Shown here: piece by piece, positions 1-5,621 of the stretch
Position numbering within the stretch: position 1 is the first letter of the stretch
Layout: each line of letters begins with the position of its first letter
Virus record (IMG/VR): IMGVR_UViG_2667527849_000012
Direction: 5' to 3' (one strand)
Source: a virus
Lineage: Duplodnaviria; Heunggongvirae; Uroviricota; Caudoviricetes
Length of the DNA stretch: 5,621 nucleotides
Program-made: the position numbers

Positions 1-3000
1 AAGGGGAAAACGCACGATGTGCTGACCGGAAGTGATGACGGTCGCCACAGCAACACGTCTCTGGCGCACTGACGGTTTCATCGTGGGTGTCGGTTATAAA
101 TTCTGATTAGCCAGGTAACACAGTGTTATGACAGCCCGCCGGTTCAGGCGGGCTTTTTTGTGGGGTGAATATGGCAGTAAAGATTTCAGGTGTACTGAAA
201 GACGGCACAGGAAAACCGGTACAGAACTGCACAATCCAGCTGAAAGCAAAACGTAACAGCACCACGGTGGTGGTGAACACGCTGGCCTCAGAAAATCCGG
301 ATGAAGCCGGGCGTTACAGCATGGACGTTGAGTACGGTCAGTACAGCGTTATTCTGTTGGTGGAAGGATTCCCGCCGTCACATGCCGGGACCATCACCGT
401 GTATGAAGATTCCCGACCCGGTACGCTGAATGATTTTCTCGGTGCCATGACGGAGGATGATGCCCGTCCTGAGGCACTGCGCCGTTTTGAACTGATGGTG
501 GAAGAGGTGGCGCGTAACGCGTCCGCGGTGGCACAGAACACGGCAGCCGCGAAGAAGTCAGCCAGCGATGCCGGCACATCAGCACGTGAGGCGGCAACCC
601 ATGCGACTGATGCTGCAGATTCAGCACGTGCAGCCAGCACGTCAGCCGGACAGGCCGCTTCGTCGGCTCAGTCAGCGTCTTCCAGCGCAGGAACGGCATC
701 AACAAAGGCCACTGAAGCCTCAAAAAGTGCTGCCGCTGCAGAGTCCTCAAAAAGCGCGGCGGCTACCAGTGCCGGTGCGGCGAAAACGTTAGAAACGAAT
801 GCGGCAGCGTCACAACAATCAGCAGCCACTTCTGCATCCACCGCGACCACGAAAGCGTCAGAAGCTGCCACCTCAGCCCGGGATGCGTCGGCTTCAAAAG
901 AGGCGGCAAAATCATCAGAAACGAACGCATCATCAAGCGCCAGTAGCGCAGCTTCCTCGGCGACGGCGGCTGCAAATTCTGCGAAGGCGGCCAAAACGTC
1001 CGAGACGAACGCCAGGTCTTCTGAAACGGCAGCGGGACAGAGTGCCTCAGCTGCGGCAGGCTCAAAAACAGCGGCTGCGTCGTCTGCCAGCGCCGCGTCA
1101 ACAAGTGCCGGGCAGGCCTCAGCCAGTGCCACCGCCGCCGGAAAATCGGNNNNNNNNNNNNNNNNNNNNNCCAGGTAACACAGTGTTATGACAGCCCGCC
1201 GGTTCAGGCGGGCTTTTTTGTGGGGTGAATATGGCAGTAAAGATTTCAGGTGTACTGAAAGACGGCACAGGAAAACCGGTACAGAACTGCACAATCCAGC
1301 TGAAAGCAAAACGTAACAGCACCACGGTGGTGGTGAACACGCTGGCCTCAGAAAATCCGGATGAAGCCGGGCGTTACAGCATGGACGTTGAGTACGGTCA
1401 GTACAGCGTTATTCTGTTGGTGGAAGGATTCCCGCCGTCACATGCCGGGACCATCACCGTGTATGAAGATTCCCGACCCGGTACGCTGAATGATTTTCTC
1501 GGTGCCATGACGGAGGATGATGCCCGTCCTGAGGCACTGCGCCGTTTTGAACTGATGGTGGAAGAGGTGGCGCGTAACGCGTCCGCGGTGGCACAGAACA
1601 CGGCAGCCGCGAAGAAGTCAGCCAGCGATGCCGGCACATCAGCACGTGAGGCGGCAACCCATGCGACTGATGCTGCAGGCTCAGCACGCGCAGCCAGCAC
1701 GTCAGCCGGACAGGCCGCGTCGTCGGCTCAGTCAGCATCTTCCAGCGCAGGAACGGCATCAACAAAGGCCAGTGAAGCATCGAAAAGTGCTGCTGCTGCA
1801 GAGTCCTCAAAAAGCGCGGCAGCTACCAGTGCCGCTGCGGCGAAAACGTCAGAAACGAATGCGGCAGCGTCACAACAATCAGCAGCCACTTCTGCATCCG
1901 CCGCGACCACGAAGGCGTCAGAAGCTGCCACCTCAGCCCGGGATGCGTCGGCTTCAAAAGAGGCGGCAAAATCATCAGAAACGAACGCATCATCAAGCGC
2001 CAGTAGCGCAGCTTCCTCGGCGACGGCGGCTGCAAATTCTGCGAAGGCGGCCAAAACGTCCGAGACGAACGCCAGGTCTTCTGAAACGGCAGCGGGACAG
2101 AGTGCCTCAGCTGCGGCAGGCTCAAAAACAGCGGCTGCGTCGTCTGCCAGCGCCGCGTCAACAAGTGCCGGGCAGGCCTCAGCCAGTGCCACCGCCGCCG
2201 GAAAATCGGCNNNNNNNNNNNNNNNNNNNNNCCAGGTAACACAGTGTTATGACAGCCCGCCGGTTCAGGCGGGCTTTTTTGTGGGGTGAATATGGCAGTA
2301 AAGATTTCAGGTGTACTGAAAGACGGCACAGGAAAACCGGTACAGAACTGCACAATCCAGCTGAAAGCAAAACGTAACAGCACCACGGTGGTGGTGAACA
2401 CGCTGGCCTCAGAAAATCCGGATGAAGCCGGGCGTTACAGCATGGACGTTGAGTACGGTCAGTACAGCGTTATTCTGTTGGTGGAAGGATTCCCGCCGTC
2501 ACATGCCGGGACCATCACCGTGTATGAAGATTCCCGACCCGGTACGCTGAATGATTTTCTCGGTGCCATGACGGAGGATGATGCCCGTCCTGAGGCACTG
2601 CGCCGTTTTGAACTGATGGTGGAAGAGGTGGCGCGTAACGCGTCCGCGGTGGCACAGAACACGGCAGCCGCGAAGAAGTCAGCCAGCGATGCCGGCACAT
2701 CAGCACGTGAGGCGGCAACCCATGCGACTGATGCTGCAGGCTCAGCACGCGCAGCCAGCACGTCAGCCGGACAGGCCGCGTCGTCGGCTCAGTCAGCATC
2801 TTCCAGCGCAGGAACGGCATCAACAAAGGCCAGTGAAGCATCGAAAAGTGCTGCTGCTGCAGAGTCCTCAAAAAGCGCGGCAGCTACCAGTGCCGCTGCG
2901 GCGAAAACGTCAGAAACGAATGCGGCAGCGTCACAACAATCAGCAGCCACTTCTGCATCCGCCGCGACCACGAAGGCGTCAGAAGCTGCCACCTCAGCCC

Positions 3001-5621
3001 GGGATGCGGCGGCCTCAAAAGAGGCAGCGAAATCATCAGAAACGAACGCATCCTCGAGCGCCAGTAGCGCAGCTTCCTCGGCAACAGCGGCAGGAAATTC
3101 CGCGAAGGCGGCAAAAACGTCAGAGACGAACGCCAGGTCTTCTGAAACGGCAGCGGGACAGAGCGCCTCGGCTGCGGCAGGCTCAAAAACAGCGGCTGCG
3201 TCGTCTGCCAGTGCCGCGTCAACAAGTGCCGGGCAGGCCTCAGCCAGTGCCACCGCCGCCGGAAAATCGGCAGAAAGTGCTGCATCGTCCGCTTCAACAG
3301 CCACAACGAAGGCTGGCGAAGCCACTGAGCAGGCCACGGCAGCAGCGAGGTCAGCTTCCGCAGCGAAGACATCCGAAACGAACGCGAAAGCGTCGGAAAC
3401 CCGTGCAGAATCCTCAAAAACGGCTGCCGCATCGTCCGCCAGTTCGGCGGCGTCATCGGCATCATCGGCGTCTGCTTCAAAAGATGAGGCGACCAGACAG
3501 GCGTCAGCAGCGAAGGGCANCAAGTGCCGGGCAGGCCTCAGCCAGTGCCACCGCCGCCGGAAAATCGGCAGAAAGTGCTGCATCGTCCGCTTCAACAGCC
3601 ACAACGAAGGCTGGCGAAGCCGCTGTACAGGCCAGCGCAGCAGCGAGGTCTGCTTCCGCAGCGAAGACATCCGAGACGAACGCGAAAGCGTCGGAAACCA
3701 GCGCAGAATCCTCAAAAACGGCTGCCGCATCGTCCGCCAGTTCGGCGGCGTCATCGGCATCATCGGCGTCTGCTTCAAAAGATGAGGCGACCAGACAAGC
3801 GTCCGCAGCGAAGGGCAGCGCCACGACAGCATCCACGAAGGCGACAGAGGCAGCTGGCAGTGCGACGGCGGCAGCACAGAGCAAAAGTACGGCGGAATCC
3901 GCGGCAACGCGCGCCGAGACAGCGGCAAAACGGGCAGAGGATATTGCATCCGCCGTGGCGCTTGAGGATGCGAGCACGACGAAAAAGGGGATAGTACAGC
4001 TCAGTAGTGCGACTAACAGCACTTCCGAGTCACTGGCGGCAACACCAAAAGCCGTTAAGGCCGCGTATGACCTGGCTAACGGGAAATACACCGCACAGGA
4101 TGCAACGACAGCACAGAAAGGGATAATCCAGCTAAGCAGCGCGACCAACAGCACGTCTGAAACGCTGGCGGCAACGCCAAAGGCAGTAAAAGCAGCCAAT
4201 GACAATGCTGAGAAACGTCTGCAGAAAGATCAGAACGGTGCGGATATCCCTGGCAAAGACACCTTTACGAAAAATATTGGTGCCTGCCGTGCCTTCGGTG
4301 GGTCAGTAAGCACAACAACAGGAAACTGGACGACTGCACAGTTTATCGAGTGGCTGGATTCTCAGGGAGCATTTAACCATCCATACTGGATGTGCAAGGG
4401 TTCCTGGTCTTATGGCAATAATAAAATCATTACTGATACTGGCTGCGGTAATATTCATCTCGCCGGAGCTGTCATTGAAGTAATGGGGATAAAGTCAGCG
4501 ATGACGATCCGCATTACCACTCCGACCACATCCAGCGGTGGCGGAACAACCAACGCCCAGTTTACCTATATTAATCACGGAACAGATTATTCACCTGGCT
4601 GGCGAAGGGACTATAACTCCAGAAATAAGCCAACGGCATCAGAGATCGGGGCGCTACCGTCAGGTGGAACAGCAGTATCATCAGTTAATCTGGCTTCAAA
4701 AGGTCGGGTAGCCGCGCTGACAGACAATACGCAGGGGGCAGCAGGTCTTGAGTTATACGAGGTGTATAACAACGGATATCCAACAGCGTATGGAAATATC
4801 ATTCACCTGAAAGGGATGACAGCCGTTGGCGAAGGTGAGTTACTCATCGGCTGGAGTGGTACAAGCGGTGCTCATGCTCCGGCATTTATTCGTTCACGAC
4901 GGGATACGACCGACGCAAACTGGTCGCCGTGGGCGCAGCTTTACACCTCGGCTCATCCTCCTGCAGAGTTTTATCCAGTCGGTGCACCAATCCCGTGGCC
5001 ATCAGATACCGTTCCGTCTGGTTATGCCCTGATGCAGGGGCAGACTTTTGACAAATCTGCTTACCCGAAACTTGCAGCCGCTTATCCGTCAGGCGTGATC
5101 CCTGATATGCGTGGCTGGACGATTAAGGGCAAGCCCGCCAGTGGTCGGGCCGTATTATCTCAGGAACAGGACGGCATTAAATCGCACACCCACAGCGCCA
5201 GCGCATCCAGTACGGATTTGGGGACGAAAACCACATCGTCGTTTGATTACGGCACTAAATCCACGAATAACACCGGGGCGCATACGCACAGTCTGAGCGG
5301 CTCTACAAGTTCAGCTGGGGCCCACCAACATAGTCAGACTGGGCCCAGAACGAATAGCGGGAGTCAACCTACTGGAATGTTTCCGGCAGGGAGTACTCAA
5401 GTTAGCGGGACTAATCAGGTTGGTATCAGTGGCTCATTAACCAGTGGCACCTCCCAATGGGTAGGTAAATCATCTTCAGAAGGAAACCATACACACTCAC
5501 TGTCCGGCACAGCAGCATCTGCGGGTGCACACGCGCATACTGTCGGTATTGGTGCTCATACGCACTCTGTTGCGATTGGTTCACATGGACACACCATCAC
5601 CGTTAACGCTGCTGGTAACGC

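What the first reader, a model, noticed from the sequence alone, without database searches (positions are those of the whole stretch)
111..3271. The stf 5' region with its upstream terminator occurs three times head-to-tail, separated by 21-N runs
Three ~1.04-kb units (111-1149, 1171-2210, 2232-3271) each start at the same base 5 bp after the lom stop. Units 1 and 2 both stop at the same codon (…ATAAGKS) and are followed by exactly 21 N; unit 3 reads on past that point into the rest of stf. Each unit carries its own terminator, RBS and ATG, so a real array would encode two truncated fibre N-termini plus one full gene, which seems biologically implausible. Identical start points, breaks at a shared sequence and fixed-length N spacers are what serialised alternative contigs or graph paths from collapsed paralogs look like. 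I therefore favour a scaffolding artefact, with a real tandem amplification as a low-probability alternative.
Basis: partly seen in the sequence, partly recalled or inferred. Interest (0 to 1): 0.7.

Follow-up and report, generated by a model that had tools for sequence, protein, structure and literature searches.

The report
Scaffolding artefact in prophage tail-fibre gene
The three head-to-tail copies of the start of a lambda-like prophage side-tail-fibre gene are near-identical alternative contigs that an assembler or scaffolder laid in series with N spacers, not a real gene array, so what lies underneath is an ordinary lom–stf locus.

Summary
A single N at 3520 is followed by 297 nt (3521-3817) that repeat 3223-3519 at 96%.

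The evidence points to an assembly artefact.
- No unit junction is resolved in sequence.
- A head-to-tail junction probe finds no contiguous match in 5,426 complete E. coli genomes. These always show J–lom–one stf–tfa.
- Sequenced phages carry one copy each.
- Nineteen N-free IMG/VR contigs read straight through the "unit end".
- Differences between units fall in blocks, so the units look like mosaics of two haplotypes that exist as clean contigs elsewhere.
- Contig ends lie 7-11 nt from sites where those haplotypes differ.
- Other draft-derived IMG/VR contigs show the same serialisation, including the same stf 5' duplication joined by a single N.

Removing the redundant pieces restores one uninterrupted Stf reading frame (phage_tail_N, Phage_fiber_2, Collar). 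Interest is low.

The parts
1..106 (+). 3' end of lom (Ail/Lom outer-membrane beta-barrel gene). The normal-frame stop is TGA at 104-106. The window lacks 83 bp at 61-66 relative to all complete-genome copies, which gives a premature TGA at 70-72.
   Evidence: alignment to L001, annotated Ail/Lom.
111..1149 (+). Unit 1, contiguous with lom. It holds the lom terminator (133-154), an RBS, the stf ATG at 171, and stf codons 1-326 plus one extra base.
   Evidence: It is 99.0% identical to NZ_CP138399 and has 5 mismatches to IMG/VR allele L005.
1150..1170 (.). Spacer of 21 N (scaffold or serialisation gap). The junction sequence is unknown.
1171..2210 (+). Unit 2, a redundant alternative contig of the same stf 5' region. 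It matches unit 3 up to position 854 (U1 coordinates) and unit 1 from 888 onwards.
   Evidence: Its block-boundary haplotype is essentially absent from complete genomes.
2211..2231 (.). Second spacer of 21 N.
2232..3519 (+). Unit 3 plus 248 nt of continuation ('tail A'). Over 2232-3271 it is identical to copy 1 of IMG/VR contig L004. The tail switches to the other haplotype after about 3290.
3520..3520 (.). Single N joining two overlapping, non-identical contigs.
   Evidence: The junction is absent from complete genomes.
3521..3817 (+). Redundant repeat of 3223-3519 ('tail B', 96% identical). It is the start of the last contig and is identical to the continuation in L004 copy 2.
3818..5621 (+). 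Remainder of stf (Phage_fiber_2 repeats, Collar domain, His-rich C-terminal part). The reading frame is open to the window end.
133..154 (+). Intrinsic-terminator-like hairpin plus T run after lom. It is repeated at 1193-1214 and 2254-2275 because the unit is repeated.

Best explanation
The window is a draft scaffold, or a serialised set of contigs, over an ordinary lambdoid-prophage lom–stf locus. The source DNA probably holds at least two near-identical stf copies in different prophages. A short-read graph assembler could not phase them. It emitted several partly chimeric contigs bounded by graph branch points, that is, sites where the copies differ. All these contigs share mate-pair links to the same neighbours. 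A scaffolder therefore laid them one after another, with 21 N where it assumed a gap and a single N where it predicted an overlap it could not merge.

The real structure is lom – terminator – one stf gene per prophage. Dropping units 1-2 and one of the two 297-nt copies restores an uninterrupted Stf frame.

Shown here: the redundancy, the blockwise mosaicism, the absence of any junction in finished genomes, and the recurrence of the same artefact in other drafts. Inferred: the number of true copies, and the assembler and scaffolder steps.
For: 1. The junctions are never sequenced; they are hidden by 21 N, 21 N and 1 N.
2. A 240-nt probe made of unit end plus unit start finds no contiguous match in 5,426 complete E. 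coli genomes. Only 8 records cover at least 80% of it, and all 8 span 726-831 nt, which is an ordinary single gene.
3. A 54-nt probe across the 3520 join has 0 records with at least 80% cover. A 240-nt probe there gives only two-piece matches spanning 298 nt, which is single copy.
4. Complete genomes show J–lom–single stf–tfa, collinear with the collapsed window.
5. stf 5' regions are multicopy per genome in separate places (median 2-3, up to 14-16). That is the substrate for paralog confusion.
6. Phage records give 237 places in 235 records.
7. Nineteen N-free IMG/VR contigs with the exact 88-nt sequence across the 'unit end' read straight through it, with at most one unit start each.
8. Blockwise differences give haplotypes Z2-a1-b1, Z2-a2-b1 and Z2-a2-b2. 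Unit 3 equals L004 copy 1 exactly. The lom-linked allele exists as N-free contigs (L005 and others) that differ from unit 1 only in block Z. Tail A is a mosaic of both haplotypes and tail B equals the L004 tail.
9. Over the same 111-nt interval, U1-type and U3-type sequences are at least 99% matched in 588 and 504 complete-genome records, with exact matches. U2-type reaches that level in 1 record, with no exact match.
10. The contig termini are 11, 11, 8/7 and 11 nt from the nearest haplotype difference. The joint chance is about 0.01.
11. Independent drafts show the same thing. IMGVR_UViG_2671180490_000011 has the same stf 5' duplication joined by a single 'n', with breakpoints shifted to lie exactly at the variable sites. 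In L009-L012 a single N is typically followed directly by an 88-100% identical near-copy of the sequence just before it, as in L009 (N at 3386), L011 (4874) and L012 (4910).
12. Collapsing either copy gives an ORF of 1010 aa or more with no stop and Stf domains.
13. The mechanism is described for haplotype contigs placed adjacently by mate links (PMC2864568). Lambdoid-prophage similarity is a known assembly problem (PMC4587872).
Against: No reads, depth or mate-pair data were available, so the artefact is not directly demonstrated. The source record and assembler could not be identified. The meaning of exactly 21 N is unexplained. If the single N at 3520 is deleted, the 297-nt duplication is in frame, so frame alone does not exclude a real internal duplication. 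The local a2|b1 combination of unit 2 does occur once in a divergent natural allele (L015), so 'chimeric' is suggestive, not proven. stf alleles are naturally mosaic.
Confidence: 0.9

Rival explanations
1. The pieces are allelic variants from different strains or phages in a mixed sample (metagenome, pooled culture or heterogeneous population), not paralogs in one genome. They were serialised by a scaffolder or by a post-assembly step that links contigs with fixed N spacers. The array would still be unreal.
For: The fixed 21-N length looks like a formal spacer. The haplotypes are only 1.3-2.9% apart. The source is unknown.
Against: The closest relatives with the same linked alleles and the same artefact come from IMG isolate-genome UViGs. 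Both haplotypes co-occur within single isolate contigs (L004, L012). Complete isolate genomes commonly carry 2-16 stf 5' copies. The single N at 3520 is not a fixed spacer.
Confidence: 0.1
2. This is a real tandem amplification. The chromosome carries lom followed by two truncated stf 5' cassettes and one full stf, produced by unequal recombination. The Ns merely hide unsequenced junctions.
For: The units are in register, with near-equal periods of 1060 and 1061 nt. Tandem duplications occur in bacteria (general knowledge).
Against: No such junction exists in 5,426 complete genomes, in phage records or in GTDB and metagenome contigs. The copies differ by blockwise substitutions that match alleles known elsewhere, rather than being identical as a recent amplification would be. 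The unit ends coincide with haplotype-variable sites, not with recombination signals. No inverted repeats or recombinase are present. The array would encode two 326-aa truncated fibres.
Confidence: 0.03
3. Only the last join is real. On this view stf carries a genuine in-frame 297-bp (99-aa) internal tandem duplication in its Ala/Ser-rich shaft, and the N at 3520 is a miscalled or extra base.
For: Deleting the N keeps the frame open. The shaft region is repetitive and varies in length between alleles (spans of 2960-3098 nt).
Against: The contiguous junction is absent from all complete genomes. The two copies correspond to the two different haplotypes seen elsewhere: tail A is P1-like and tail B equals the L004 tail. 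The first copy ends 11 nt before a haplotype difference. The single-N-plus-near-copy pattern is recurrent in related drafts.
Confidence: 0.03

Closest known systems
False segmental or tandem duplication from alternative (haplotype or paralog) contigs placed adjacently in a scaffold (Kelley & Salzberg 2010, PMC2864568; Ko et al. 2022, PMC9516828)
   Same: The copies are near-identical but not identical, lie side by side and are separated only by gap Ns. Both copies link to the same neighbours. The duplication vanishes in finished assemblies. SNPs between the copies are really variation between templates.
   Different: The templates here are most likely paralogous prophage genes in a haploid bacterium, not two haplotypes of a diploid. 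Three or four serial pieces occur rather than two, and the pieces appear chimeric.
Lambda side tail fibre Stf / E. coli prophage StfR-type tail fibre (Pfam PF08400 phage_tail_N family) in the J–lom–stf–tfa module
   Same: The collapsed ORF has phage_tail_N (1-134, E=1e-71), two Phage_fiber_2 repeats and a Collar domain. It follows lom and its terminator as in complete genomes and phages, with 95-99% DNA identity.
   Different: Nothing of substance differs once the redundancy is removed. tfa lies beyond the window end, and lom carries an 83-bp deletion.
Genuine tandem gene amplification, or tail-fibre cassette switching (Mu Gin / P1 Cin invertible segments, DGR-targeted fibre tips)
   Same: The only shared feature is the superficial presence of several fibre-gene segments in a row.
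   Different: Those systems vary the C-terminal receptor-binding part and need inverted repeats plus an invertase, or a reverse transcriptase plus template repeat. Here the conserved N-terminal virion-attachment part is repeated in direct orientation. There are no inverted repeats, no such genes and no sequenced junction.

Membership tests
Scaffold false duplication (serialised alternative contigs) | The copies are adjacent and separated only by gap characters, and no junction is resolved in sequence. | tested here: met
   N runs lie at 1150-1170, 2211-2231 and 3520, exactly at every copy boundary.
Scaffold false duplication (serialised alternative contigs) | The duplication is absent from finished or long-read assemblies of the same locus. 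| tested here: met
   No contiguous junction occurs in 5,426 complete E. coli genomes. Complete loci carry a single stf. Phage records give 237 places in 235 records. Nineteen N-free contigs read through the unit end.
Scaffold false duplication (serialised alternative contigs) | The copies differ by the polymorphisms that distinguish the underlying templates, and contig ends lie at branch points. | tested here: met
   The units are blockwise mosaics of two haplotypes found as clean contigs elsewhere. The termini lie 7-11 nt from variable sites, with a joint chance of about 0.01.
Scaffold false duplication (serialised alternative contigs) | Read depth and mate-pair evidence: depth is split among the copies and no read spans a junction. 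| not testable with these tools
   No reads are available and the source record was not found.
Lambda Stf-type prophage side tail fibre | An N-terminal prophage tail-fibre domain (PF08400), followed by a shaft with Phage_fiber_2 repeats and a Collar domain. | tested here: met
   One search gives PF08400 at 1-134 (239 bits), PF03406 twice and PF07484 on the collapsed protein.
Lambda Stf-type prophage side tail fibre | Synteny of J–lom–stf–tfa. | tested here: met
   lom lies directly upstream in the window. The full J–lom–stf–tfa order is present in homologous complete loci L001-L003. tfa itself lies outside the window.
True tandem gene amplification | A sequence-resolved novel junction that is identical at each repeat boundary. 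| tested here: not met
   The junctions are Ns, and unit 1 ends one base earlier than unit 2. No such junction occurs in any collection searched, apart from another N-joined draft.
True tandem gene amplification | The copies are initially identical or diverge randomly. | tested here: not met
   The differences are confined to blocks 619-854 and 888-1091 and match alleles known elsewhere. Bases 111-618 are identical in all three units.
Tail-fibre diversification cassettes (invertase or DGR) | Inverted repeats or crossover sites, a recombinase or reverse transcriptase, and variation at the C-terminal tip. | tested here: not met
   There are no inverted repeats of 18 nt or more. Only lom and stf ORFs are present. 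The repeated part is the conserved N-terminus.

The most novel reading that the evidence does not exclude
The source strain really carries lom followed by two truncated stf N-terminal cassettes, each with its own terminator, RBS and ATG, ahead of a full stf. That would be a tandem array expressing free Stf N-terminal (virion-attachment) domains, kept heterogeneous by gene conversion with other resident prophages.
Probability: 0.03. Interest if true: 0.45.

Novelty: not a real feature. Interest (0 to 1): 0.06.

Why it matters
The value is mainly quality control. Taken at face value, the window would yield two spurious truncated tail-fibre genes, a frameshifted stf 'pseudogene', and a false tandem amplification. 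It would also give wrong copy-number and SNP calls for a host-range determinant. The same pattern recurs in other draft-derived viral contigs: near-copies laid head to tail across a single N or a short N run. Prophage tail-fibre annotations, pseudogene counts and 'repeat' discoveries drawn from such collections should therefore be filtered for N-flanked self-similarity. There is no new biology in the array itself.

Tried and rejected
1. I tried to find the source record. The junction pattern with a 0-30 nt gap found only a different N-joined contig in IMG/VR and nothing in GTDB genomes or JGI metagenomes. An exact-protein look-up of the ORF 2292-3785 was not on record. The assembler stays unidentified.

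2. I tried to explain the exact 21 N. Three termini lie exactly 11 nt from a variable site, meaning 10 bases are missing, and 10+1+10 = 21. This hints at a 21-base word size, but I could not verify it. From memory only, ABySS and SSPACE write a single 'n' for a predicted but unmergeable overlap; this was not tested.

3. I tested whether unit 2 is a chimera. It is strongly under-represented in complete genomes. However, the local a2|b1 combination exists in one divergent natural allele (L015). Unit 1's Z2|a1 combination was found in 0 viral contigs. The result is suggestive only.

4. I considered tail-fibre cassette switching, DGR and invertible segments. I rejected them: there are no inverted repeats, no recombinase or reverse transcriptase ORFs, and the repeated part is the conserved N-terminus.

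5. I considered that the lom 83-bp deletion is another assembler artefact. I judge this less likely, because 6 N-free contigs from different IMG genomes carry it with near-identical flanks. It is nevertheless absent from all complete genomes.

6. I looked for a clean contig identical to the collapsed gene. None was identical; the best matches were 96-98%.
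Full report
OBSERVATION

The window has N runs at 1150-1170 (21 N), 2211-2231 (21 N) and a single N at 3520. Three units share the start CCAGGTAACACAGTG, four bases after the lom stop (TGA at 104-106). They are 111-1149 (1039 nt), 1171-2210 (1040 nt) and 2232-3271 (1040 nt). Units 1 and 2 end at ...GGAAAATCGG and ...GGAAAATCGGC, which reads ...ATAAGKS. Ungapped identities are 98.7% (U1/U2), 98.5% (U2/U3) and 97.1% (U1/U3). 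Each unit carries the hairpin AGCCCGCCGG/CGGGCT plus a T run (133-154, 1193-1214, 2254-2275). Each also has a GGGGTG RBS-like motif and an ATG (171, 1231, 2292). The description is therefore correct.

Two things were missed. First, the differences are blockwise. U1 and U2 differ only at 619-854. U2 and U3 differ only at 888-1091 (U1 coordinates). All three are identical over 111-618. Second, the redundancy continues. Segment 3223-3519 is repeated at 3521-3817 (11 differences in 297 nt) across the single N. As written, the period of 298 frameshifts stf. The ORF from 2286 stops at 3785.

WHAT THE LOCUS IS

Window 1-106 is the 3' end of an Ail/Lom gene. The units are the intergenic terminator plus the 5' 980 nt of a lambda-type side tail fibre gene. 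Removing units 1-2 and either copy of the 297-nt repeat gives an uninterrupted ORF of 1010 codons running to the window end. That ORF has phage_tail_N (PF08400, residues 1-134, E=1e-71), two Phage_fiber_2 repeats and a Collar domain.

In complete genomes the order is J – lom – one stf – tfa. This holds for L001 (NZ_CP138399), L002 (NZ_CP028755) and L003 (NZ_CP148583). These loci are collinear with the collapsed window.

IS A HEAD-TO-TAIL ARRAY SEEN ANYWHERE?

I built a 240-nt probe from the last 120 nt of unit 1 and the first 120 nt of unit 2. Among 5,426 complete E. coli genomes, only 8 records covered at least 80% of it. None is contiguous.

For the 3520 join, the 240-nt probe gave only two-piece matches spanning 298 nt, which is the single-copy arrangement. 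A 54-nt probe, too short on either side to seed alone, had 0 records with at least 80% cover.

Phage records hold 237 places in 235 records. The junction pattern with a gap of 0-30 nt was absent from GTDB species representatives and from JGI metagenome contigs. Nineteen N-free IMG/VR contigs carry the exact 88-nt sequence across the 'unit end'. They read straight through it, each with at most one unit start. The 'unit end' is therefore an ordinary interior point of stf.

Meanwhile, stf 5' regions are multicopy per genome at separate sites (median 2-3, up to 14-16 places). That is the situation in which short-read assemblers fail. PMC4587872 notes this for lambdoid prophages.

INDEPENDENT OCCURRENCE OF THE SAME ARTEFACT

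The one hit in IMG/VR was IMGVR_UViG_2671180490_000011 (L004). It has the same stf 5' region twice, head to tail, joined by a single 'n'...GGAAAATCGGCAGAAAG n TTCTGATTAGCCAGG.... Its breakpoints are shifted by 7 and 10 nt relative to the window. They sit exactly at the first sites that vary between alleles: A/G at position 100, and T/C after CAGAAAG. Breakpoints that move with the assembly and track polymorphic sites are properties of an assembly graph, not of a recombination event.

In further IMG/VR contigs from IMG isolate genomes (L009-L012), a single N is typically followed directly by an 88-100% identical near-copy of the sequence just before it. An example is L009 984-3385 against 3387-5788. 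This is a systematic behaviour of the pipeline or pipelines behind those drafts.

THE UNITS LOOK LIKE MOSAICS OF TWO TEMPLATES

Unit 3 is identical over 1040 nt to L004 copy 1; I call this haplotype P2. The lom end of the window carries an unusual 83-bp deletion. That deletion is found in 10 IMG/VR contigs. Seven of them have identical downstream stf 5' sequence; I call this haplotype P1.

P1 differs from unit 1 only at five sites, 470-584 (block Z), where unit 1 carries the P2 bases. The pieces therefore read as follows:
- Unit 1 is Z(P2)-a(P1)-b(P1).
- Unit 2 is Z(P2)-a(P2)-b(P1).
- Unit 3 is all P2. Its continuation (tail A, 3272-3519) is P2-like for the first ~20 nt and then P1-like.
- The last contig starts as P2, since tail B is identical to the L004 copy-2 tail.

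I also compared one 111-nt interval across the a/b boundary against complete genomes. The U1-type and U3-type sequences are at least 99% matched in 588 and 504 records, with exact matches. The U2-type reaches that level in a single record, with no exact match. This fits a chimeric path. The local combination does exist in one divergent natural allele (L015), so the point is suggestive only.

The internal contig termini lie 11, 11, 8/7 and 11 nt from the nearest P1/P2 difference. About one third of positions qualify on each side, so the joint chance is about 0.01.

MECHANISM

The known parallel is the false segmental duplication of Kelley & Salzberg (PMC2864568). There, an assembler builds separate contigs for two slightly divergent templates. 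Both contigs have mate links to the same surroundings and are placed at adjacent positions.

Here the templates are most likely paralogous stf genes of two or more resident lambdoid prophages. The following steps are inferred, not shown:
1. The graph between the shared anchors was traversed along several partly phased paths.
2. The resulting contigs were laid in series.
3. The scaffolder wrote 21 N for an assumed gap and one N for a predicted overlap it could not merge.

I could not identify the assembler or explain the figure of 21. The 10+1+10 arithmetic around variable sites hints at a 21-base word but is unverified.

RIVALS

Four points argue against a real tandem amplification:
- No junction exists in any finished genome.
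- The differences are blockwise and allele-matched.
- The boundaries track polymorphic sites.
- The coding consequence, two 326-aa truncated fibres, is implausible.

A real in-frame 297-nt shaft duplication at 3520 is not excluded by frame, because dropping the N keeps the ORF open. It is contradicted by the junction probes and by the two copies belonging to different haplotypes.

A mixed-strain origin of the variants, rather than paralogs, remains possible. It would not change the verdict that the array is unreal.

Cassette-switching systems do not fit. There are no inverted repeats, no recombinase or reverse transcriptase ORFs, and the conserved N-terminus is the repeated part.

VERDICT

The array is not a real feature. 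The underlying lom–stf module is already known. Interest is low, apart from its use as a quality-control flag.

Noticed in passing
window 61-72 (compare L001 6067-6149): The lom 3' end lacks 83 bp between two CTGGCG hexamers, which creates a premature TGA at 70-72. The junction is absent from all 5,426 complete E. coli genomes, from GTDB representatives and from JGI metagenomes. It is present in 10 IMG/VR contigs from IMG isolate genomes, 6 of them N-free, with near-identical flanks. It is probably a real lom pseudogene allele of one prophage lineage, but this is unproven.
   Followed up: partly
window 3520 and 3223-3817: A single N joins two 297-nt near-copies (96% identical). As written it frameshifts stf, but with the N removed the duplication is in frame. 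The junction is not found in complete genomes.
   Followed up: yes
L004 1057; L009 3386; L010 1065 and 2987; L011 1447 and 4874; L012 4910 and 5977: In IMG/VR draft-derived contigs, these single Ns are followed, directly or within about 200 nt, by an 88-100% identical near-copy of sequence that ends at or near the N. The affected genes are J, lom and stf. This is a recurrent serialisation artefact that inflates apparent tandem repeats in that collection.
   Followed up: partly
L002 6147-7049 (NZ_CP028755, E. coli A20): A macro-domain-containing protein gene is inserted between stf and tfa in this prophage. It may be cargo at the tail-fibre locus.
   Followed up: no
L001 10190-13232 (NZ_CP138399): The closest complete-genome prophage sits beside ybhB-bioA, the lambda attachment region. 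A GGDEF-domain gene lies on the opposite strand immediately beyond tfa.
   Followed up: no
window ~5180-5600: The C-terminal part of Stf has repeated G-x-H-x-H-S/T motifs (GAHTHS, GAHQHS, GNHTHS, GAHAHT, GAHTHS, GSHGHT). From memory, such motifs are typical of metal-binding fibre tips; this was not analysed here.
   Followed up: no
window 3975-4200: Two 40-aa Phage_fiber_2 repeats ([30 protein letters not shown] and [30 protein letters not shown]) form a genuine internal protein repeat. It is distinct from the artefactual DNA duplications.
   Followed up: partly
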